64,000 nucleotides of DNA from a virus: positions 9,568 to 73,567 of IMG/VR virus record IMGVR_UViG_3300021180_000008; one strand, written 5' to 3'. Positions 5,361 to 28,997 of the stretch are shown here, piece by piece (within the stretch, counting starts at the first letter, position 1; the number at the start of each line of letters is the position of its first letter). A model generated the notes under the pieces. That model was not told where the DNA came from and did not search any database. It worked only from the letters and a program-made list of their open reading frames with translations. The translations under genes were made by a program, and so were the position numbers.

Positions 5361-5366
5361 TTCAGT

Positions 5367-5473
5367 TCAGTCTATGGTGTTAGTGCCACGAAGCACAAGT
5401 AGCTACTATGGTTAGTGTATCAGGCTTGTTCGATTCAAGGCTTGAGGCTATGTTCGTTAGCACCATAGACTGA
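5367..5473 (+). ncRNA. tRNA-like element lacking an anticodon arm, enclosed by a 19-bp stem
   Basis: 5367-5385 pairs with 5455-5473 (3 G-U); inside are TAGCT..GG..AGT (D-arm-like) and CTTG-TTCGATT-CAAG (T-arm-like). Confidence 0.55.
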
Positions 5474-5490
5474 TTCAATTAAGGAGCCAC

Positions 5491-9856: not shown

Positions 9857-10448
9857 GAAGAATCATCCGGCACTGAAGGTACTTAAAGCCGAGCTTAAGA
9901 AGGCAGAAGCAGCCGAAGCAAAAGCTATTAAACTTAGGGATAAGCTTGAGGCTGAGAAAGATAAGCTTCAAGAGCGCATAGATGATCTGGACTCTGAATG
10001 GTACGACGCAGATAATAAAGTTGACGAACTGAATAATGAAGCAACCGAGATACAGGATAAGATTGATCAAGTTGAGAACTATGATCCTTCTAAAGCTGTA
10101 CCTGAGAAAGGTGCTTTCACAGCTTATAAGAAAGTCTTTAATAAGACATACGGTCATCAGCTTATCGCTGTACTTGAGATTCCCGCTAAGGCTAAACGCG
10201 TAACGCCTCATACCGGTTACAATGATTATAAGAGCCGTGCCTCAGCTGCTAAGGTTGTAGCTTTTGAAATGATGGATGGCAGCCCACTTAAGATTAAAAC
10301 TGCCCGTGGTATTTACCACAACTCAGACTTTGTCTATAAGCTCGGACAAGTTGCTAAGCCCGAAGCTAAGTTTGATCCATGCATGACTGATGCTTGCCGG
10401 TCAGGTATCCACTTCTTCATGGATCGTGACTCTGCTGTAAGGTATTAA
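9849..10448 (+). CDS. Coiled-coil plus DUF5758-like domain protein
   Basis: G-F-AYKK...LEIPA-AKR...K-RA--AKV...FD...C-SGIHFF. Confidence 0.7.
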   Translation: MSKKNHPALKVLKAELKKAEAAEAKAIKLRDKLEAEKDKLQERIDDLDSEWYDADNKVDELNNEATEIQDKIDQVENYDPSKAVPEKGAFTAYKKVFNKTYGHQLIAVLEIPAKAKRVTPHTGYNDYKSRASAAKVVAFEMMDGSPLKIKTARGIYHNSDFVYKLGQVAKPEAKFDPCMTDACRSGIHFFMDRDSAVRY

Positions 10449-10793
10449 GCCATGAATTTGTGCCCAGTCCCACCCCATCACACTGATCCTGAAGTCAAGG
10501 CGGCCCCAGGTCAAGTTATCAATGAACTAGCTAACGCCCTTAAAGAGATAGCTACGGCTGATGATAAGATGACTGCTGTTATGATGAGGGCTATAGCTAG
10601 GTCAATTCTAAGGAGACATAACAAGTGGTAGTCCAGTATATCGTTACAACATCCCTAAAGATCTTACTAGCCGTGTTAGTGGCTGGTTTAGTTGAGATAG
10701 GGTATTGGTCGATTACTATCATGGACTTGGAGGGGGTAAAGAAGTCAATTGAGACTTCAGCCTTAGGTCACTGTACTATTAAAGGAGCTGAAA

Positions 10794-11279
10794 ATGCCTT
10801 CGATGTCACTGTTATCGGTGCTACTGATACCCTACACCACCCTAGCCTACGTCATTCACGCAGGAGACATATTACCGGGGACGAATAAACAGCTTAGGCT
10901 GGCTCTATGTGCTATACCATTTGGCTTGGCTAGCTACCTAGCGGGGGACATTAGTATTGCGCTAATAGCCTCTGTAATGGCTTATATAGGTACAAATATA
11001 GGCCCAGAGAACTTCTGGCTTATGGGCAACGGTACACCAGAGTTTAGGAGTAATATTGTTACAAGAATAGTGGAAGCTTTGAAACTAAAGTTCCCTACCT
11101 TACCTTACTGTATAGCTGGTATGGCTATTAAGGGGTTTGTAACTAATCCTCTATTTGGATGGTTCTTATGTCCCTTGGCCTATTATATCAGTTCAAGGGC
11201 TCCAAAAGTATCATTTGATCTAGGTTCCTTAATACTGGGTGTATTCTATGGTGTAGCGCTTTATCTAGTAGCGAGGTAG
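10794..11279 (+). CDS. Multi-pass membrane protein
   Basis: AAGGAG SD; several hydrophobic segments. Confidence 0.65.
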   Translation: MPSMSLLSVLLIPYTTLAYVIHAGDILPGTNKQLRLALCAIPFGLASYLAGDISIALIASVMAYIGTNIGPENFWLMGNGTPEFRSNIVTRIVEALKLKFPTLPYCIAGMAIKGFVTNPLFGWFLCPLAYYISSRAPKVSFDLGSLILGVFYGVALYLVAR

Positions 11280-11810
11280 TATCATGCTTAAAGCCATACA
11301 GTTCTTTACGATTATTTCGTTTATTGCCTGTATAAGCAGTATTATTACGTTTAAGCTTATGTTGGTGGAATTTAAGACTGACCATGCCGTTGTTATCATA
11401 CCACATACGGATGGTAATTTTGTACTTCATGACTCTGACTTGGAAAGGGCTAAGCATGATAATGACAAAAGACGGCAAAGGACTATGCTTGGGAAAGCTA
11501 ACCTTAGAGGGAAAAGCCAAGCTAAGGAAATACAAGGTTAACGATAATATAGTTAACCAAGATAGAGTTGAAGCTTTAAAGATTATCGAATATGTCAAGA
11601 AGAAATTCAATAGGGACTTATTGGGGGAGTATGTGGATACTGTATCCAGACATGCTTTTAAAAGAGTTAACCTATGGAATCTATCGCCTAAGCAACTAGC
11701 TAACTGGCGATGGTATAGTAAGTTTGAGTTGTCCCTTATTGAGAATATACGTAAGGATAAGCAGCTTGAGGTAAAAAGTAAAATAAAATTAATCAATGGA
11801 GGAGATAACT

Positions 11811-12206
11811 ATGCCTAATGCAATGTTCACAACTGACGGAGCTCAACAACGCCAATACAATCACATTAACGGTTCACGCGAACTTAAGGTTGCCTTGACT
11901 TCGGGAAACAACCGTGGTAAATACTTTACTTCACACACTCTTCGCGAAACTGTTAATGCTGGTGGTCAAAGCCTGTCTTCCAATTACGTTGCTGCACGCA
12001 TGGCTAGTTTTTATAAGGATGGGTTAGTTAAACGTAAACTTGTTCGCAGCCCTGTTAATAAAGGTCCTGCCAAGGTTTGGGCATTTGCTTGGAAGAAGAA
12101 CGCGCCAGTTAGTGTTAAGTCCGCAATCTTCCGTGTCGGTACTAACCCCGCAGCCACATATGTAAGGGACAATAATGTCACTATTACACCTGACGCAACA
12201 AATTAA
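11811..12206 (+). CDS. Putative winged-helix DNA-binding protein
   Basis: GGAGGA SD; FTSHTLRE...LSSNYVAARMASFYKDGLVKR...WAF wHTH-like pattern. Confidence 0.55.
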   Translation: MPNAMFTTDGAQQRQYNHINGSRELKVALTSGNNRGKYFTSHTLRETVNAGGQSLSSNYVAARMASFYKDGLVKRKLVRSPVNKGPAKVWAFAWKKNAPVSVKSAIFRVGTNPAATYVRDNNVTITPDATN

Positions 12207-12222
12207 GAAAAGGATAATTAAA

Positions 12223-13110
12223 ATGGTAACACCACAAGAGAATCCTGATCTTACTTATTCTAGAGGCCATGCTCTGAGTACAGGTGAATTTACAACATGG
12301 AACCCAGTGCGAAGCCTTCATGCTTTCTCTAAGACAGATTTGGATACTGATCCTATCTTCTTGGGCATGGAGTGGGAAGTGACACATGAAGGTTCTAATT
12401 ATAGAAATATGATTAAGAAAGCTGCCTCCTTACCAATCTTCGATAAGATTAACTTCGGTAATGGTGGTGCTCCTATCGAGATGCGTACTTGCCCAGGGAC
12501 TTATCGCTATCTGTCTAAGGTCATTTCTGAAGAGTTCTTTGGTAATAATCTGCAACAGGATATGTATATCACAACTTCAAATGGCATACATGTGCATATT
12601 GATAAGAAGACAGGCTTCCCATCTACTACATCCCTTAATAAGTTCTGTGTGTTTATTAATCTTCCTACGCATAAAAGTTTTATTCAGGAGATTAGTGGCA
12701 GGGCTATGACTAATTGGTGTGCTCCTAATGTAATGGATGTTAAGTACTTCGTAGACCTGTCTAAGCTGCCTAAGAAAGCAGTAGCCATAGAGTCTCTGAA
12801 TAGACTTACTCGTATTGTCGGGGGTGTTAATAAGAATGTTGAGGGCTCAGGTAAACACGTAGCCGTTAATATTTCTGGTCATGCTTCGACAGTGGAACTT
12901 CGTATCTTTGCTTCACAAGCACAAGAAGCTGCTGTCCTTAAGAACCTTGAGTTTGTAGATGCAGTGATTAGGTTTACCAGAACTCGTATGTATAACAAGT
13001 TGACTATTGAGAACTTTGTTAAATATGTTGAAGAACATCAGAATGACTATCCCAATCTCTATGCTCATTCAGCTATCGTTTCACGTATTAAAACACAGAA
13101 GATTGCTTAA
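12223..13110 (+). CDS. Putative amidoligase (COOH-NH2 ligase, glutamine-synthetase-like fold)
   Basis: FLGMEWEV, IEMRT-P, NGIHVHI, TVELRIF motifs. Confidence 0.82.
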   Translation: MVTPQENPDLTYSRGHALSTGEFTTWNPVRSLHAFSKTDLDTDPIFLGMEWEVTHEGSNYRNMIKKAASLPIFDKINFGNGGAPIEMRTCPGTYRYLSKVISEEFFGNNLQQDMYITTSNGIHVHIDKKTGFPSTTSLNKFCVFINLPTHKSFIQEISGRAMTNWCAPNVMDVKYFVDLSKLPKKAVAIESLNRLTRIVGGVNKNVEGSGKHVAVNISGHASTVELRIFASQAQEAAVLKNLEFVDAVIRFTRTRMYNKLTIENFVKYVEEHQNDYPNLYAHSAIVSRIKTQKIA

Positions 13111-13113
13111 GGG

Positions 13114-13748
13114 ACTACACCCTTAAGGAAGTAACGTGGGTCGGATCGTCCTTAATCCTATCCGCATATATCAAAACTTTATTTAGCTTATCCAGACTAG
13201 CCATCGAGGTGGGTTTGCGACTGCGTCTTCCTCTCTTCGCAAGGAGAGATAGAGCGAAGCTCGTTTACCGGCTTATGACGTGTGCCGTATCTGGTGTAGC
13301 GGATAGAGTATTGCTGTAAACTAGACGAATCAGGTTGAAGGCCTACCAACGCGGCCCTGCTAAAGGGTTTCAAGTGTAGGACTATATATCTGTCTATCTA
13401 GTCGTAGGCTGGTAATCGCTGATGGTTTTCAACGACCTGACGCAACCCAATCGCCACTAAGGGGTAGACTGAATAGGGGATTCTCTACTTGGTTATGCCT
13501 AATATAAAGTGACTAGTAGTTCAGCCTGATGTAAATAGTACCAGTTCCTGGTCTTTGGGTTTAGCGAAAGTCTGCAGATTGCCGTTCTTTACGGAGTGTA
13601 ACAGTTTGTATAGCTTTATTCGAGATAATCTTAATCAGTCATAATACTTAATAGGCTAAGGAGCTGTGAAGGAGTTAGACTAGTCCGTCGGACACTGACT
13701 TTGGACAGGATGTCACTCCCTCTTACGTTACTTCCTTAAGGGTGTAGT
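13114..13748 (+). ncRNA. Large (~635 nt) highly structured non-coding RNA candidate closed by a 24-bp terminal stem
   Basis: ORF-free; ACTACACCCTTAAGGAAGTAACGT (13114-13137) is the exact reverse complement of 13725-13748; many nested internal helices and a GCAA tetraloop. Confidence 0.78.
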
Positions 13749-13756
13749 AAACGCAC

Positions 13757-16165
13757 ATGAAATCAATAAAGAAAGCTGTCGAGATACACTTTAAGAATAA
13801 TCAGGTTTTTGATATAGATTATAAGCCTGAGGATATAAGACTAGATGTTATAGACTGTATCGAGCTTTATAATGTCCCAATGAACCTATTCTTTTCTCAG
13901 TTAGCTGAAGCGATGGTTGCTTTGAAGGCTAAATATGTAGATTCAAGTAATCTGGTGTTTGGGCATTACGGAGAAAGACAGGGACTTGGGACTGAAAACC
14001 TATTTGTATTCGCCTACAAACTATACTCTGTAAAGGAAAAAAGGGAGATTGTAATGCTACCTAAGTACATGGCTTCATTGGTCACTGGACCTGCTCCAGA
14101 TATTAAAGAACGGCAAGAGACTAGTATGCATCTCTTTGTTGATGTTCTTAAAGAAATGGCCAATGATGAGTCTGAGTTGTGCAAGAAGAACAACCGTTCT
14201 TGGCTTGCCAAGGATATGTTTGCTTCGCATCCTAAGGTACATAGGGGATACTATCATCATAAGCATGAGGGAGTTCTTTATGTTATTGATGCTGTATCAG
14301 GGGATAAGATACGCAAGGATGAGTCTTGCCTGACCACTGAAGGTACGTTTATTCATAAGAGCCGTACCGAGCATTCCAACTTTCAGCAGATGTCACACTC
14401 TACCAGAAATAGACTAATAGCAGTAGGACGTGCATCAGTACCTGTTAACGATCCTATACTGAGTAGTCTCTATTTCTATGAACCTGGTTCACATCTATAT
14501 ATCAAATATAAAGCAGAGCAGTGGAAGATTGCCCTTGCTATGCCCAGAGCTTTGAGAAGCATTTGTCAATTGTGGTCAGCCTACTGCGCTTATAGCGGCT
14601 CTCAGACCTTGCCTGAATCGGTTGATGATATCGTAGGAGCATGGACTGCTTTCCTTGGCTTTGCTGGCAGGAATAGAACTCAAGAAGAACAGCTTTACGA
14701 GTGTCTTCGTCTTACTTTGGAAGCTACTGGCAACAACTTTTATATAGTACCAAAGGATTCCCCTCTATTCCCCGGTATGGTTCTGGAAGATGGTGATCGG
14801 CTGGGACAGATGATTGCTCAGAATCCTTATGGCTCACGTAAGCCAGTGATATGTCTTAATCAAGAGATGCGTGTATTCTGGGATGCAGGTAACCTAGGTC
14901 CCAATAGGGCTATTGTTCCTGTTAGCTTGGGAACCTTTCCTTTTGACATCTGTGTTAATGTAACTGCTCAGCAAACCATCTCTTCGAGCACTAATCAACA
15001 GACCCGTAATAACTATGGAGAACTACTTCAACACTCAGCCCGAGTTAATGAAGTTAAGGTCTGCTTTATGATGACCGATGCAGAGAAGAAAGTCTTTGAC
15101 TATAAAGAGAACCAGCTTAAGGAGGCTTTGGCTACACATAAGGCTAATCGCACTAAAGCTTTGGCTGAAGGTAAGCCGTTTATCGAGGCAGCTCCCAGAC
15201 GTGCAACTGAAGATGAGCCTATCTTCCTTGGCATGGAACTTGAAGTGCTACTTAAGTCAGCTTTACAGAACTCTGCCAGCATGAAATCTTTGATTAAGGA
15301 GATTGCTGACTCTAAAGTAGGTAATCACGTAATCACTAAAGCAGATGGGTCTATTGGCTCGTATGGTATAGAGATTGTGACTATCCCAGCAACCTTGAAA
15401 TATCATAAGGATATCCTAGATAAACATTTCTTCTCCCCTCCTAATGAGTTTAACCGTAGGTTGATGGCAGCAGATACATGTGGTATTCACGTCCATATCT
15501 CTAAGAAGTCATTGACTACACAGAAGCTTGGGCAGTTGATGGCTTTTATTAACAATAATAAGAACGGTTCATTCATTAATGCTTTGGCTGGTAGAGCCCC
15601 TAATAACTATTGTGTACGATCAGCAGTATTGGGCAACAATACCAAGGGTGTTGACGTATCCGCTAAGGTAGTTAAGAAGGCTTGTAAAGACGGGGATATC
15701 AAGAAGGGGCTTGCCTTCCGGCGTATTGAAGGGGCATCTCACTATGATGCTGTTAATATCCAGAACGCTAATACCGTAGAAATCCGTATCTTTAAATCTT
15801 CTACAGACAAACACCGTATCTTCCGTATACTTGAGTTCTGTGAATCTCTTGTCAAGTTTGTACGTTGTCATGGTATGCAGCAAATGACTGTGTATGACTA
15901 TGTACAGTTCCTGCTTAGAAAAGAGAACCAAGAAGATTATCACCACATGATACTTTGGCTTGCTTCTAAGAATATGATTGGACACACAACTAAATACGCA
16001 AAAGATCCTAAGACGGGAGAGTTGCGTAAGAAGTTGATACACGTATATGGGGAAAACTTGATACCTTTCCCCAGCTCCTTGTTCCATGCTAATAAGGAAA
16101 ATTACCCTGAGTATTACGCTAAGCTTAATAAGTCAACAACCAAAACCAAGGAAAAGGAAGCATAA
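13757..16165 (+). CDS. Putative amidoligase with a long N-terminal extension
   Basis: C-terminal FLGMELEV, KADGSI, GIEIVT-P, CGIHVHIS, TVEIRIFKS motifs. Confidence 0.85.
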   Translation: MKSIKKAVEIHFKNNQVFDIDYKPEDIRLDVIDCIELYNVPMNLFFSQLAEAMVALKAKYVDSSNLVFGHYGERQGLGTENLFVFAYKLYSVKEKREIVMLPKYMASLVTGPAPDIKERQETSMHLFVDVLKEMANDESELCKKNNRSWLAKDMFASHPKVHRGYYHHKHEGVLYVIDAVSGDKIRKDESCLTTEGTFIHKSRTEHSNFQQMSHSTRNRLIAVGRASVPVNDPILSSLYFYEPGSHLYIKYKAEQWKIALAMPRALRSICQLWSAYCAYSGSQTLPESVDDIVGAWTAFLGFAGRNRTQEEQLYECLRLTLEATGNNFYIVPKDSPLFPGMVLEDGDRLGQMIAQNPYGSRKPVICLNQEMRVFWDAGNLGPNRAIVPVSLGTFPFDICVNVTAQQTISSSTNQQTRNNYGELLQHSARVNEVKVCFMMTDAEKKVFDYKENQLKEALATHKANRTKALAEGKPFIEAAPRRATEDEPIFLGMELEVLLKSALQNSASMKSLIKEIADSKVGNHVITKADGSIGSYGIEIVTIPATLKYHKDILDKHFFSPPNEFNRRLMAADTCGIHVHISKKSLTTQKLGQLMAFINNNKNGSFINALAGRAPNNYCVRSAVLGNNTKGVDVSAKVVKKACKDGDIKKGLAFRRIEGASHYDAVNIQNANTVEIRIFKSSTDKHRIFRILEFCESLVKFVRCHGMQQMTVYDYVQFLLRKENQEDYHHMILWLASKNMIGHTTKYAKDPKTGELRKKLIHVYGENLIPFPSSLFHANKENYPEYYAKLNKSTTKTKEKEA

Positions 16166-16166
16166 G

Positions 16167-17654
16167 ATGTGTGTCATTATTTGTAAACCAGCAGGTAAAG
16201 AGTTGGCTGAGACAGATGTAAGGGGAGCACACCGTGCAAATCCTGATGGTTTTGGTCTGATGTATTATGACGAAGAGAAGAAAGACATCTTTGCCCGTAA
16301 AGAAGTCTTTAAAGAGCCTGATAAGATTATTAAGGCAGTAAAGGCTTTGAAGGATGTAGACGCTTGCTTCCACTTCCGCATACGTACCCATGGCCCTATT
16401 GCCTATCAAACATGCCATCCATTCCGTGTAACTAACAAAGAGAAGCACGGCATGACCATTTATCTTATGCATAATGGTATTATTCATGGTATGAAAGAGA
16501 AGCAAGATGAATCGGATACTCAAGCTTTTGTAAACTCATATCTTCATGAGTTGCTTAAGCGTGATCCATCTATGATTGAGTCTGAAGCTTTCCGTGACCT
16601 GATTGAGAACAAGATCGGAGCCAATAACAAGCTATGCTTTATGTATGGTGAAGGCAAGATCATCCGCTTTAACGAGCGTTCTTGGATGAAGCATGAAGAT
16701 ATGGATGTATCTAACCGTAACTTTGTTAGTTATGGAGGATATAATAACTACGACTACACTTCTGGACGAAGAAAGAAGTCATGGGAAAAGGATGAAGACA
16801 GCACTAAAAGCAGCGCTGGGACCTCCAGCCCCACAGTCATTCCGGTATCGGCCCCCAAGATGGGAGATAAAGGAAAAGTTGCTAGTCTGTGCGGTACTCC
16901 TGTCGCTGTGGGGAGTTCTGTCTTTATCACTCATCGGCAAGAGCCTGACTGGTATGCTGAAGGGAAGATTACCGATATCAATAGCTCTTTTAGCGTCGCT
17001 GTTACTTTTACTGACAGGTTCAACAAACCAGTTAGCTTCGCTTTTTTCACATCAACCGGAGTATCAACCTACGCCTCAGCAGATGTGGGCTATCAGTGTA
17101 TACCCATGAACCGCAAGTCGCCAGATATGGATAAGACTATCAGGACATTGACAGCGTCTACCACCGATCCTCTGCCTAAATCAGATGATGTATGTTTGCT
17201 TGAAGATAAGAGTGATAAAAAAAAAGAGGAGCAGACTCAGTCCGTGACCAAAGAAGCGCACACTTTGAACGTATCACACGGTACTTTGACTGTGGATGCT
17301 AACTCTCGTTGGGGTGGCGAGCTTCTTAATAACGAGAATGGGAAGGTCTATGACATTACCTATGAAACAGGTACTAGCTTCGTAGACATCTTTCTTATGA
17401 GCCCTCAAGATCGTTTCAACTTCTATATGAACAACGTTCAAGAGTCCTTTAATATGTGGCAAGACTTGGTCGAGAAAGTGATCTCTGATCAAGTTGACGA
17501 GGGTACTCTAGCTTATGAGAATGGTATTCTTATGGAGCTAGTACCGCCTGACACTGAAGATGACGATGAAGAAGAGAGCATGTCTAAAGAAGAGATGGAA
17601 GCAATGCATGATGCTCAAGATGTCATGATGATTGCTGCAGGAATGAAAGCTTAG
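16167..17654 (+). CDS. Class II (Ntn) glutamine amidotransferase with a C-terminal extension
   Basis: N-terminal MC, NPDGFG, HFRIRTHG, CHPF, MHNG, SDT motifs. Confidence 0.9.
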   Translation: MCVIICKPAGKELAETDVRGAHRANPDGFGLMYYDEEKKDIFARKEVFKEPDKIIKAVKALKDVDACFHFRIRTHGPIAYQTCHPFRVTNKEKHGMTIYLMHNGIIHGMKEKQDESDTQAFVNSYLHELLKRDPSMIESEAFRDLIENKIGANNKLCFMYGEGKIIRFNERSWMKHEDMDVSNRNFVSYGGYNNYDYTSGRRKKSWEKDEDSTKSSAGTSSPTVIPVSAPKMGDKGKVASLCGTPVAVGSSVFITHRQEPDWYAEGKITDINSSFSVAVTFTDRFNKPVSFAFFTSTGVSTYASADVGYQCIPMNRKSPDMDKTIRTLTASTTDPLPKSDDVCLLEDKSDKKKEEQTQSVTKEAHTLNVSHGTLTVDANSRWGGELLNNENGKVYDITYETGTSFVDIFLMSPQDRFNFYMNNVQESFNMWQDLVEKVISDQVDEGTLAYENGILMELVPPDTEDDDEEESMSKEEMEAMHDAQDVMMIAAGMKA

Positions 17655-17668
17655 GAGTTATAATACAA

Positions 17669-18388
17669 ATGCATGAATACAAATGGGAAATTATCTATCT
17701 TGATAGAGACCCTAGGGAATGTGCGAGACAGCTATGTGATGAGGACCTTAAGAATCAGGTAATGGACTTACCTATAATGATGTCTTATTGTGCCAGATGT
17801 TCTGGCAGAAATGAGTCACAGACATACGCTTCTTATAACGTTCCTATCAACAACAGATCTTCGATGTTAGCTGATTGGGCTGTAAATCGAGAAGCTAATT
17901 GGAAATATCTTTGGATACATTGGACTGAGTGTTTGAAAGAGCATAAGCACCGTTTTGGTATAGATGCTAAGTCAATAGAGCTAGTAGGGATACTAGAAGC
18001 TTACCCAGGCCGCAGACGTTATCGTATGCTTAGTGGGGCTCCAGCTGCAGATAGATTGGTAGCACCACCTTATCTAGGTCCTTCTGAGTTCACTATAGAC
18101 AATAATATGACCAATGAGCGCAGCACTTCTACACTTAACTCTTATCGTAATATGTATAAGAAACGAGCAGGGATGGAGTTTACTAAGAGGACTGCTCCTC
18201 TATGGCTTACTGGACAGCCAGCACCACCTCGTATACGTACGCCTAGAGACGAAGAACGTGTAAGTTCAAGACCGACGCGGGCGACCGCTGCTAGACATAG
18301 AAACGCAGCGCGAGAAACCTTAAATGATCTCCTTCGTAGTTATGAAGAGAGAGAAGAAAGGTCAGCCAATGCCTTCAACCCTAGATGA
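17669..18388 (+). CDS. Diverged pyrimidine-dimer glycosylase (DenV/Pyr_excise)-like protein
   Basis: IIYLDRDP..CA..LCD, W...NW.YL....E...RFG, SYR..Y..K, F..R..P.WL pattern. Confidence 0.55.
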   Translation: MHEYKWEIIYLDRDPRECARQLCDEDLKNQVMDLPIMMSYCARCSGRNESQTYASYNVPINNRSSMLADWAVNREANWKYLWIHWTECLKEHKHRFGIDAKSIELVGILEAYPGRRRYRMLSGAPAADRLVAPPYLGPSEFTIDNNMTNERSTSTLNSYRNMYKKRAGMEFTKRTAPLWLTGQPAPPRIRTPRDEERVSSRPTRATAARHRNAARETLNDLLRSYEEREERSANAFNPR

Positions 18389-28008: not shown

Positions 28009-28233
28009 ATGGCTAACTTTATCACACTTACCCGCGTCTTTAAAAACAAGGGTAAAAACGGTCTCGTAGAACAGACGGTTTCCATCCGCGCAGATGCTAT
28101 CGACATGGTTCGTGCATCTAACCGTCTTGGCTACCCCGCCCACCGTTCCACGATCACCCTGCGCAGCGGTGCTACCGTTGAGCTGGCAGACAAGGCTTCG
28201 GCAGTAAACGCAGCACTGGCTCGCCTTCGCTAA
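28009..28233 (+). CDS. Small basic hypothetical protein
   Basis: AGGAG SD; biased codon usage (CGT/CGC, GCA/GCT). Confidence 0.7.
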   Translation: MANFITLTRVFKNKGKNGLVEQTVSIRADAIDMVRASNRLGYPAHRSTITLRSGATVELADKASAVNAALARLR

Positions 28234-28523
28234 AAACTTGTTTCACCTTATAGTACTCATAAGATAAGGTGATCTTGTAAATCTGTATCCATCTTCGATA
28301 CCTCACCAGAGGACTGTAGAAGAGTACCGATAAAGTGCTACTCAGACGTCATGTCCATGTTGGCTACTCGTACAGATACAGATGATGCGTAAAAATACGT
28401 TAGGAACTTGTTGGTGAAGAAGAGAGTATTAACAGATTGGATAGGGGTTCCGAAAGACTTCATCCCCGTGGGATCAAGTAGGAGTTCGTTTATTCAGTTG
28501 TTAATACTCGATTCTATTCAATT

Positions 28524-28997
28524 ATGAAATCAGGTTTATATTCTATAACCAATACCATTACGCGATGTGTCTACATCGGTAGTTCAGTTAATGTGCCTAA
28601 ACGATTAACTCGTCATAGGTGGGAACTAAATAATAAAAGACATAAGAATCAAAAGCTACAAAGGGCTTGGGATAAGCACGGGGAAGCAGTTTTCGTTTTT
28701 GAAAAAATTCTGACCTGCCCAGTAGAACTGATCAGATGTTTTGAACAACTGTTTGTAAATGCGTATGATTCTGTAGCAACTGGCTACAACATTCTTCCTG
28801 ATGTAAATTGTTCTAAAGGTTATAAATTAAGTCAGGAAGCAAAAGATAAGATCTCCCAGCTGCATAAAGGGCGAGTGCTTAGTGAAGAGCATCGTGCTAA
28901 GTTAAGGGCTGCTAAGATTGGTACAAAATTTTCGGATACTCATAGACAGAATATGTCTAAAGCTAGGAAAAGGTATTGTCAAGCAAGAAAAGCATAA
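28524..28997 (+). CDS. GIY-YIG homing endonuclease with NUMOD3 repeats
   Basis: GLY.I...VYIGSS..V.KR...H, GYN, SEEHRAKL/SDTHRQNMS repeats. Confidence 0.9.
   Translation: MKSGLYSITNTITRCVYIGSSVNVPKRLTRHRWELNNKRHKNQKLQRAWDKHGEAVFVFEKILTCPVELIRCFEQLFVNAYDSVATGYNILPDVNCSKGYKLSQEAKDKISQLHKGRVLSEEHRAKLRAAKIGTKFSDTHRQNMSKARKRYCQARKA

What the first reader, a model, noticed from the sequence alone, without database searches (positions are those of the whole stretch)
13114..13748. ~635-nt, ORF-free, multi-helix RNA closed by a perfect 24-bp stem between two amidoligase genes
Seen: the genome is otherwise gene-dense, but this gap has no ORF of 60 aa or more. Its ends 13114-13137 and 13725-13748 are exact reverse complements, extendable to 27 bp with G-U. 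The stem starts 3 nt after one stop codon and ends 8 nt before the next ATG. Nested helices inside include CGTCCT/AGGATG (13147/13707), CTATCCGC/GCGGATAG (13158/13299), CCAGA/TCTGG (13192/13290), a CTCTCTTC-GCAA-GGAGAG GNRA hairpin (~13231-13248), GCTGTAAACT/AGTTTGTATAGC (13313/13603), TCAGGTTGAAGGCC/GGTTTTCAACGACCTGA (13330/13424), AACCCAA/TTGGGTT (13444/13555) and AGACTGAA/TTCAGCCT (13466/13520). The G-U pairs favour a + strand RNA. Known: phages carry giant ncRNAs of unknown function (GOLLD, ROOL), and long closing stems are RNase III substrates. Inference: a large structured RNA excised from the amidoligase/amidotransferase operon transcript, possibly a new class and possibly working with those enzymes. 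This is the best candidate for an undescribed system in this window.
Basis: partly seen in the sequence, partly recalled or inferred. Interest (0 to 1): 0.9.

Follow-up and report, generated by a model that had tools for sequence, protein, structure and literature searches.

The report
Excised stable RNA in phage operon
A soil phage carries, just upstream of its large amide-ligase gene, a gene for a roughly 583-base RNA that is bracketed by a long pairing stem, is found cut free and abundant in soil RNA data, and matches no catalogued RNA family.

Summary
13114-13137 and 13725-13748 are a perfect 24-bp inverted repeat, 27 bp with two G-U pairs and a G-C. It starts 3 nt after a stop codon and ends 8 nt before an ATG, and no ORF of 60 aa or more lies between.

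New evidence: in 4 of 4 soil metatranscriptome runs laid, one contig of 578-583 nt covers 13139/13140 to 13716-13722. That is the interior without the arms. It has 0 mismatches and depth 16-58, against 0-5 for neighbouring genes.

The layout recurs upstream of the large amide ligase in 5 of 6 loci with a full-length homologue. The 25-27-bp stems differ in sequence but stay paired. A 20-nt motif occurs in all 6. Rfam has no match.

Best reading: a new class of stable non-coding RNA, released from the operon transcript at an rRNA-like processing helix, probably by host RNase III plus trimming.

Not shown: its function, its inner fold (interior folding z is only -0.55 to -2.14) and the enzyme that cuts it.

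The parts
13114..13140 (+). 5' arm of the long-range processing helix (24 Watson-Crick pairs, then G-U, G-U, G-C)
   Evidence: The arm is absent from the RNA contigs, which start at 13139/13140.
13140..13722 (+). The released RNA as seen in RNA libraries, about 583 nt. G13140 and C13722 are the innermost pair of the helix.
   Evidence: contigs 13140-13720 (X4, depth 58.5), 13140-13722 followed by 22 nt of Illumina adapter (X5, 16.1), 13140-13717 (X6, 32.5) and 13139-13716 (X7, 27.2), with 0 mismatches. No conserved peptide among the six interiors. No ORF of 60 aa or more.
13722..13748 (+). 3' arm of the processing helix. It contains an AAGGG stretch that could serve as ribosome-binding site for the ATG at 13757.
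   Evidence: The ribosome-binding-site reading is inference from the sequence.
13445..13465 (+). Conserved motif ACCC-WWUSGCY-(5-7 nt)-GGGG, possibly a 4-bp hairpin with a 12-14-nt loop. It is the family's signature.
   Evidence: Found in win, L005, L006, L007 and L009. A covariance model of it gives L008 2409-2444, inside that locus's RNA, as the best non-training hit in 678 kb, and nothing better than 14.6 bits elsewhere. In the window, 0 of 100 shuffles gave a match.
13302..13313 (+). Second shared word, GATAGAGTAKTG
   Evidence: Across the six interiors, 12-mers shared with 2 or fewer mismatches by 4 or more of them numbered 10, against a mean of 0.4 and a maximum of 2 in 20 shuffles. Its pairing partner is not conserved.
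12175..13110 (+). Small amide-ligase paralogue (311 aa), the upstream gene of the operon
   Evidence: It is the orthologue of the L008 gene at 1425-2288 (34% identity, E 4e-45).
13757..16165 (+). Large amide ligase (802 aa). Residues about 480-745 have the carboxylate-amine ligase (YbdK/glutamine synthetase/PafA) fold. Residues about 1-470 are unassigned.
   Evidence: 1tt4_A: Z 13.2, rmsd 3.8, 220 aligned.
16086..17654 (+). Class II glutamine amidotransferase-like gene (522 aa as called). Homologues align from residue 28, so the true start may lie near 16167.
   Evidence: (GATase_4).

Best explanation
The stretch is a gene for a stable non-coding RNA of about 583 nt, embedded in the phage's amide-ligase/amidotransferase operon. 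Sequences on either side of it pair into a 27-bp helix, like the leader-trailer helices that bracket 16S and 23S rRNA. The long transcript is cut at this helix, most likely by the host's double-strand-specific RNase III, followed by trimming of the stubs. This releases the interior RNA, which outlasts the neighbouring messages. The same cut separates the small-ligase message from the large-ligase/amidotransferase message and frees the ribosome-binding region just after the helix. The RNA belongs to a small, previously uncatalogued family kept directly upstream of the large amide ligase in related phages. Its own job is not known. My working guess is that it acts together with, or regulates, the ligase/amidotransferase module. 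Shown: the helix, the discrete abundant RNA with ends at the base of the helix, conserved position, compensatory change in the helix, shared motifs, no Rfam match. Inferred: co-transcription, the enzyme, the trimming, the effect on translation, any function.
For: (1) Discrete RNA. In 4 of 4 RNA runs laid, one contig of 578-583 nt spans 13139/13140 to 13716-13722 with 0 mismatches. Depth is 16.1-58.5, against 0-5 for every other bin of 10000-18000. In X5 the contig runs straight into adapter after 13722. Left ends are sharp (13140 three times, 13139 once) and right ends ragged (13716-13722), as expected for a + strand RNA copied with random primers (my inference). (2) The arms are missing from these contigs, although the DNA run X1 holds 0.93 of the words of 12600-14300. 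(3) The helix is conserved by compensation. Five of the 6 loci with a full-length large-ligase homologue have a 25-27-bp helix at the same place. Together they hold 119 Watson-Crick pairs, 5 wobble pairs and 3 mismatches in 127 positions. The 5' arms are only 38-50% alike at the best of 11 shifts. All 5 wobble pairs exist only on the + strand. (4) Such repeats are rare. In 557 kb (81 fetched loci, L004-L084, plus the window) repeats of 23 nt or more at 88% or better occur only at these four stems, at two repeats inside L005 and at L045. The L045 pair is two copies of a local palindrome. (5) Helix length of 23-27 bp fits the idealised 22-bp (two-turn) RNase III substrate (PMC3867540, passages seen). 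(6) Shared motifs inside and no conserved peptide argue for an RNA under selection. (7) Synteny: RNA, then large ligase, then amidotransferase in 6 of 6 loci, with the small ligase upstream in 3 of 6. (8) No sigma-70-like promoter lies next to the RNA's 5' end (3 sites found in 12000-14500 against 6.5 expected, none near 13114-13140 on +). That fits read-through from the operon.
Against: The interior folds no better than shuffled sequence in the window (z -0.55) and only mildly better in relatives (-0.95 to -2.14 with 40 shuffles each). GC content is only slightly above the flanks (0.449 against 0.403 here; 0.382 against 0.374 in L007). No base pair inside the RNA could be tested by covariation. 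An ideal RNase III cut lies in the middle of a 22-bp helix, not at its inner end, so extra trimming or another enzyme must be assumed. No RNase III gene is in the phage record, which is 79% complete. Contigs, not raw reads, were laid. The tool warns that contigs cannot strictly show ends, strand or level, and that the four coded studies are of one year and habitat and may be one campaign. One of 6 loci (L006) has no strong closing helix (best score 12). The family is tiny: 6 loci. No further member turned up in the phage-genome blastn, in three protein-based scans or in one DNA-pattern scan. A link to the ligases rests on gene order alone.
Confidence: 0.72

Rival explanations
1. The element is only a cis-acting processing and translation-control cassette. 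The helix is the functional part: it uncouples the two ligase cistrons and masks or unmasks the ribosome-binding site. The interior is a spacer whose accumulation is a by-product of being cut out.
For: The helix sits 3 nt after a stop codon and 8 nt before an ATG here. In L007 and L008 it ends 5-6 nt before an AAGGAG. Interior length varies from 285 to 635 nt and its sequence is poorly conserved. Interior folding z-scores are weak.
Against: A local hairpin would be enough for processing, as in phage T7 (recalled), yet 6 of 6 loci keep 285-900 nt of non-coding sequence there. A 20-nt motif is kept in all six. The excised piece is 10-29 times deeper than the mRNA contigs in X4, which calls for protection by structure or protein.
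Confidence: 0.17
2. It is DNA-level: a miniature transposon with terminal inverted repeats, or an invertible promoter segment flanked by recombinase sites.
For: Three of five arm pairs are perfect Watson-Crick repeats of 23-25 bp over their perfect core. The segment is intergenic and ORF-free. GC content is somewhat higher than in the flanks.
Against: No second copy of the arms or the interior exists in the own record or in 50,697 phage records. There is no target-site duplication (GGG before, AAA after). Arm sequences differ completely between loci while position and inner motifs are kept. The imperfections include 5 wobble pairs valid only in + strand RNA. No resolvase or tyrosine-recombinase domain is in the record (record 79% complete). 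Inversion would leave the arms attached to the interior in a k=31 graph (my reasoning), but the contigs lack them. Neither model explains a 10-fold RNA excess limited to the interior.
Confidence: 0.04
3. It is an ORF-less self-splicing or otherwise spliced element: the interior is removed and the flanks are rejoined.
For: A discrete excised RNA with defined ends.
Against: No group I or group II model matches, even at E up to 10. The ends (G...C) do not fit group II GUGYG...AY or a group I terminal G (recalled rules). No joint was reported, though flank coverage is too thin for this to count. In L007 and L008 the ribosome-binding site lies intact after the helix.
Confidence: 0.03
4. It encodes one or more very small proteins or a decayed gene, and the abundant contig is an mRNA.
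For: Short ORFs exist: 58 aa on the - strand and 36 aa on the + strand.
Against: No peptide is conserved among the six interiors. The best cross-locus blastp E-value is 0.02 among 107 stop-to-stop segments of 20 aa or more. Stops occur in all frames (longest open frame 67 of 211 codons).
Confidence: 0.03

Closest known systems
Leader-trailer processing helices around 16S and 23S rRNA in bacterial rrn operons (RNase III, then trimming; Mini-III for 23S in Bacillus, cited in PMC3867540 reference list)
   Same: A long-range helix of about two turns is formed by sequences on either side of a long stable RNA inside a longer transcript. The cargo is released and outlasts the flanks. The helix is kept by compensatory change. 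Final ends lie at or near the base of the helix.
   Different: The cargo is not rRNA and matches no Rfam family. It sits between protein-coding genes of a phage operon. The cutting enzyme is not shown.
RNase III processing sites between genes of phage T7-type polycistronic mRNAs (recalled; T7 and RNase III mentioned in PMC3867540)
   Same: Intercistronic double-stranded RNA signals in a podovirus-like phage with a T7-like replication module. They separate cistrons and can change translation of the downstream gene.
   Different: T7 sites are local hairpins with an internal loop and no cargo (recalled). Here the helix encloses 285-635 nt, which accumulate as an RNA.
ROOL and GOLLD, large ornate RNAs often found in prophages (PMC5737381, passages seen; PMC12286853, search listing and start of abstract only)
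   Same: Large size (ROOL averages 581 nt, this RNA about 583 nt), association with phages, unknown function.
   Different: No match to either covariance model, even at E up to 10. Weak folding signal. Different context (an amide-ligase operon, not tRNA neighbourhoods). Only 6 members. I know of no closing processing helix described for those RNAs (recalled).
Stem-closed RNA at the head of an amide-ligase cluster in nine soil phages, and stem-clamped genes of other uncultured phages
   Same: A private 25-30-bp long-range helix encloses a unit of a phage operon. In one case it lies directly before an amide-ligase cluster.
   Different: That RNA is said to be about 200 nt. I could not compare sequences, so it may or may not be the same family. 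Those notes had no RNA data; here the released RNA is seen.

Membership tests
Known Rfam RNA families (GOLLD, ROOL, HEARO, OLE, raiA, group I/II introns, RNase P, tmRNA, riboswitches, ribozymes) | Score at or above the family's gathering threshold with its covariance model | tested here: not met
   There were 0 matches in the 64-kb window at gathering. At E up to 10 on 12900-13950 only two chance-level hits appeared: SpF44 at 18.5 bits against a threshold of 70, and SNORD69 at 17.1 against 37. Nothing was found in the homologous gaps of L005-L009 at E up to 1.
rRNA-type leader-trailer processing helix | Flanking sequences form a long-range helix of about 22 bp or more around a long RNA | tested here: met
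   The helix is 27 bp here and 25 bp in each of L005, L007, L008 and L009.
rRNA-type leader-trailer processing helix | The enclosed RNA is released as a discrete, stable species lacking the flanks | tested here: met
   In 4 of 4 RNA runs the contigs cover 13139/13140 to 13716-13722 at depth 16-58, against 0-5 outside. These are contigs, so ends are approximate.
rRNA-type leader-trailer processing helix | Pairing is kept by compensatory change among relatives | tested here: met
   The arms are unrelated in sequence (38-50% at the best shift), yet 124 of 127 positions are paired.
rRNA-type leader-trailer processing helix | Cleavage by RNase III (5' phosphate, 2-nt 3' overhang) in the helix | not testable with these tools
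   Only contigs were available. The observed ends are blunt at the G13140-C13722 pair within the error of contig ends. No phage RNase III gene was found.
Miniature inverted-repeat transposable element | Several copies sharing the same terminal repeats, and a target-site duplication | tested here: not met
   It is single-copy in the record and absent from the phage collection. The flanks are GGG and AAA, with no duplication. The arms differ between loci.
Invertible DNA segment (inverton) | A recombinase, and both orientations present in the population | tested here: inconclusive
   No Resolvase or Phage_integrase domain is in the 79%-complete record. No strand-switch joint was seen in the RNA contigs.
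Amidoligase_2 / carboxylate-amine ligase (the flanking genes) | Pfam PF12224 match and glutamine-synthetase-like fold | tested here: met
   PF12224 scores 23.3 bits against a cut-off of 22 on residues 572-699. The fold match to YbdK-like 1tt4_A has Z 13.2, with Foldseek E 4.2e-05 to 1r8g_A. The 311-aa protein is a paralogue.

The most novel reading that the evidence does not exclude
The RNA is the nucleic-acid partner of the amide-ligase/amidotransferase module. It would be a scaffold, cofactor or substrate bound by the unassigned 470-residue N-terminal region of the large ligase. The operon would then encode a ribonucleoprotein enzyme that ligates or amidates something on, or with the help of, an RNA. 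That would be a phage system of a kind not described, and it would explain why the RNA gene has stayed glued to the large ligase across phages whose ligases are only 33-44% identical.
Probability: 0.15. Interest if true: 0.92.

Novelty: new variant of a known kind. Interest (0 to 1): 0.72.

Why it matters
Long-range 'clamping' helices around units of phage operons have been noted repeatedly in this scan without any RNA evidence. Here public soil metatranscriptomes show the enclosed piece as a discrete, abundant RNA whose ends sit at the base of the helix. This supports rRNA-style excision as a way for phages to make stable non-coding RNAs out of messenger operons. It also adds an uncatalogued large RNA class with a fixed genetic partner: the phage amide-ligase/class II amidotransferase module, whose own function has been unknown since it was first predicted (recalled: Iyer et al. 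2009, not read here). The fixed partner gives a concrete handle for experiments. The cloned 1.2-kb region can be expressed in ordinary laboratory hosts with and without RNase III, and the RNA can be tested for binding to the ligase.

Tried and rejected
Known RNA families. Rfam at gathering and at E up to 10 on the window, and at E up to 1 on L005-L009, gave nothing relevant.

Close relatives of the DNA. blastn against 50,697 phage records found no match. The own record has no second copy. The earlier-findings index has no look-alike stretch.

Relatives by protein.
- Single-protein scans of viral contigs with the 802-aa and 311-aa proteins found none.
- Alignment scans of viral contigs and genome contigs found only C-terminal-domain ligases without the RNA.
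- The metagenome scan gave the five useful loci, L005-L009, among the 80 loci kept of 518 relatives.

More family members.
- blastn and nhmmer of the RNA against the 81 loci then fetched (L004-L084) found nothing below E 0.89.
None had ligase or RNA similarity and none had an enclosing stem of score 20 or more. I read them as chance hits.

Inner structure.
- Global MAFFT alignments of the elements were unreliable.
- A candidate helix between the words GATAGAGTAKTG and CAWWACTTTATT is good only in the window and in L007, and there in permuted order. It is weak in the other four loci. Dropped.
- The motif as an 11-nt tetraloop receptor: rejected by eye, because the loop would be too short in L009.
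- A boxB-like GCCCU-GCUAA-AGGGU hairpin at about 13354-13370 was seen by eye only and is not conserved. Not claimed.

Other readings tested.
- The arms as a phage promoter: rejected, since the word occurs only twice in the window.
- L045's 27-nt repeat is two copies of a local palindrome, not a long-range stem.
- Circular RNA: no joint was reported, and an adapter follows 13722 directly.
- The ligase N-terminal region got no convincing fold or Atlas match. It was not folded on its own.

In one search the lack of cover outside the RNA in X5-X7 is weak evidence by the tool's own warning.

Literature.
- Searches for amidoligase + phage + noncoding RNA, amidoligase + bacteriophage + glutamine amidotransferase, candidate structured RNAs in phages, ROOL/GOLLD and RNase III + bacteriophage + processing stalk listed no paper that describes this RNA.
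- PMC10690425 reports candidates of 29-151 bases and never mentions amidoligase in its main text.
- PMC5737381 does not mention amidoligase either.
Full report
What is there.

The window is part of a 73.6-kb uncultured virus record, estimated 79% complete. It has a T7-like primase/helicase, a family A DNA polymerase and podovirus-like ejection and structural genes. On the + strand it carries three genes in a row:
- a 311-aa gene at 12175-13110;
- an 802-aa gene at 13757-16165;
- a 522-aa gene at 16086-17654.

The 802-aa protein has a weak Pfam Amidoligase_2 match. Its model shows a carboxylate-amine ligase fold in residues about 480-745: Z 13.2 to 1tt4_A and Foldseek E 4e-05 to YbdK. Its first 470 or so residues match nothing convincing. 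The 311-aa protein is a paralogue of that ligase domain (30% identity, E 4e-30). The 522-aa protein matches class II glutamine amidotransferases.

Between the two ligase genes lie 646 nt without an ORF of 60 aa or more. Positions 13114-13137 and 13725-13748 are perfectly complementary over 24 nt. The pairing continues with G-U, G-U and G-C to 27 bp. The arm word occurs nowhere else in the window or in the record.

Is it an RNA?

Public runs holding this stretch include seven soil metatranscriptomes. I laid four of them on 10000-18000. Each gave exactly one contig on the element:

| Run | Contig | Depth | Note |
|---|---|---|---|
| X4 | 13140-13720 | 58.5 | |
| X5 | 13140-13722 | 16.1 | 22 nt of Illumina adapter follow directly |
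| X6 | 13140-13717 | 32.5 | |
| X7 | 13139-13716 | 27.2 | |

None has a mismatch. Only X4 has other contigs on these 8 kb. There are five, at depth 2-5, which shows that the phage was being expressed in that sample.

So the interior accumulates 10- to 29-fold over neighbouring messages, and the 24-27-nt arms are not part of the abundant species. G13140 and C13722 are the innermost pair of the helix, so the RNA ends at the base of the stem. The sharp left ends, the ragged right ends and the read-2-type adapter after 13722 fit a + strand RNA if the libraries are of the usual dUTP kind. I could not verify that.

Caveats from the tool apply. Contigs show presence rather than exact ends or level, and the four coded studies share year and habitat.

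Is it conserved?

No close DNA relative exists in the phage collection. The 802-aa protein has full-length relatives at 30-44% identity. An alignment of 19 of them retrieved five metagenome contigs with a full-length homologue, L005-L009. In all five, and in the window, the large ligase is followed by the amidotransferase. The small ligase precedes it in the window, L007 and L008. All six have an ORF-poor stretch upstream of the large ligase. In L009 a 116-aa gene lies between that stretch and the ligase.

In five of the six this stretch is closed by a long-range helix:

| Locus | Helix | Interior | Mismatches |
|---|---|---|---|
| window | 27 bp | 581 nt | none |
| L005 | 25 bp | 456 nt | one |
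| L007 | 25 bp | 285 nt | one |
| L008 | 25 bp | 294 nt | none |
| L009 | 25 bp | 635 nt | one |

The 116-aa gene of L009 was seen. L006 has a 900-nt gap but no helix above a score of 12.

The arms are unrelated in sequence between loci (38-50% identity at the best of 11 shifts). Yet 124 of 127 positions pair: 119 Watson-Crick and 5 wobble, and all wobbles are possible only in + strand RNA. In 557 kb of sequence examined (81 fetched loci plus the window), repeats of this quality occur at four of these stems. L009's is too mismatched for that scan. The only others are a repeat family inside L005 and one false case (L045), which is a duplicated palindrome.

This is compensatory evolution of a helix at a fixed genetic position. 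It argues against a transposon or recombination site and for an RNA-level function.

Inside the RNA.

The interiors differ greatly in length and cannot be aligned globally. They share more 12-mers than shuffles do (10 against a mean of 0.4). They also share one clear motif, ACCC-WWUSGCY-(5-7 nt)-GGGG, present in five loci by pattern. In the sixth it is the best non-training hit of a small covariance model across 678 kb (L008 2409-2444, 16.2 bits, E 0.3). The other 90 loci searched have nothing comparable. No peptide is conserved.

Folding energy of the interiors is only slightly better than shuffles: z -0.55, -1.27, -2.14, -1.27 and -0.95. I could not confirm or refute them by covariation. I therefore call the RNA real and conserved, but its architecture unresolved.

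How it most likely works.

Shown:
- a helix of about two and a half turns formed by the flanks;
- a released interior;
- helix length conserved at 23-27 bp, matching the two-turn, 22-bp idealised substrate of bacterial RNase III, which leaves 2-nt 3' overhangs (PMC3867540, passages).

Inferred:
- The operon transcript reads through the element. No sigma-70-like promoter abuts its 5' end, though phage-specific promoters cannot be excluded.
- Host RNase III cuts the helix. The record has no RNase III gene.
- The stubs are trimmed back to the base of the helix, as happens with rRNA precursors.
- The cut also frees the ribosome-binding region, which lies just after the helix in L007 and L008 or partly within it in the window.

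A cut exactly at the inner end is not what an ideal substrate predicts. The enzyme and the trimming steps are therefore the weakest part of the mechanism.

Function.

Only gene order speaks here. The RNA gene has stayed directly upstream of the large ligase/amidotransferase pair in phages whose ligases are 33-44% identical, whether or not the small ligase is present. My preferred guess, at roughly one in three, is that it serves that module as regulator or partner. The bolder form, a ribonucleoprotein enzyme using the ligase's unassigned N-terminal region, I put at 0.15.

The main rival, at 0.17, is that the interior is a mere spacer of a processing cassette. Mobile-element, inversion, intron and small-protein readings are each unlikely, for the reasons given under the rivals.

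Comparison and novelty.

In mechanism the nearest things are the leader-trailer helices of rRNA operons and the intercistronic RNase III sites of T7-type phages. As an object it resembles the large phage-associated RNAs ROOL and GOLLD. It fails their covariance models and sits in a different context.

The literature searches and the two catalogues I could read in part do not describe it. Their supplements were closed.

An earlier, unchecked note of this scan (e1-5918919) reports a stem-closed RNA of about 200 nt at the head of an amide-ligase cluster in nine soil phages. Other notes describe stem-clamped genes without RNA evidence. The present case adds that evidence.

I rate it a new variant of a known kind (a new large phage RNA class with rRNA-like excision), interest 0.72.

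Noticed in passing
window 5367-5382 / 5458-5473: A 16-nt (94%) inverted repeat encloses 75 nt in the intergenic gap 5361-5490. It may be a second, small stem-closed RNA of the same phage.
   Followed up: partly
window 28418-28434 / 28499-28515: A 17-nt (88%) inverted repeat encloses 64 nt in the gap between the ORFs ending at 28233 and starting at 28524. It is another candidate stem-closed element.
   Followed up: no
L005 4868-4897, 7818-7862, 8338-8379, 8682-8726: A 30-45-nt sequence recurs four times, in direct and inverted orientation. One copy lies right after the RNA's 3' arm and three lie inside or at the end of the amidotransferase gene. It could form further long-range helices clamping the ligase and amidotransferase messages.
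   Followed up: partly
window 16086-16165: The 522-aa amidotransferase ORF as called overlaps the end of the large ligase by 80 nt. All five homologues align only from residue 24-28, so the true start is probably near 16167.
   Followed up: no
The Rfam scan of the whole window at gathering thresholds returned no family at all.
   Followed up: partly
window 10573-11197, 13849-14111, 14992-15489: Run X4 also holds five short contigs of neighbouring phage genes at depth 2-5. The phage was transcriptionally active in that soil sample.
   Followed up: no
L009 3962-4312: A 116-aa gene with a GGAG ribosome-binding site sits between the RNA and the large ligase in this relative only. The 224-aa ORF called from 3638 is probably an artefact of an upstream in-frame start.
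   Followed up: partly
L005 160-235: A tRNA gene (Rfam tRNA, 59.9 bits) lies about 4 kb upstream of the RNA in this relative.
   Followed up: no
window 13757-15170 (protein residues 1-470): The N-terminal 470 residues of the large ligase are conserved in about 30 full-length relatives and modelled at moderate confidence. They have no Pfam, Atlas or PDB fold match. This is an unassigned domain worth folding on its own.
   Followed up: partly
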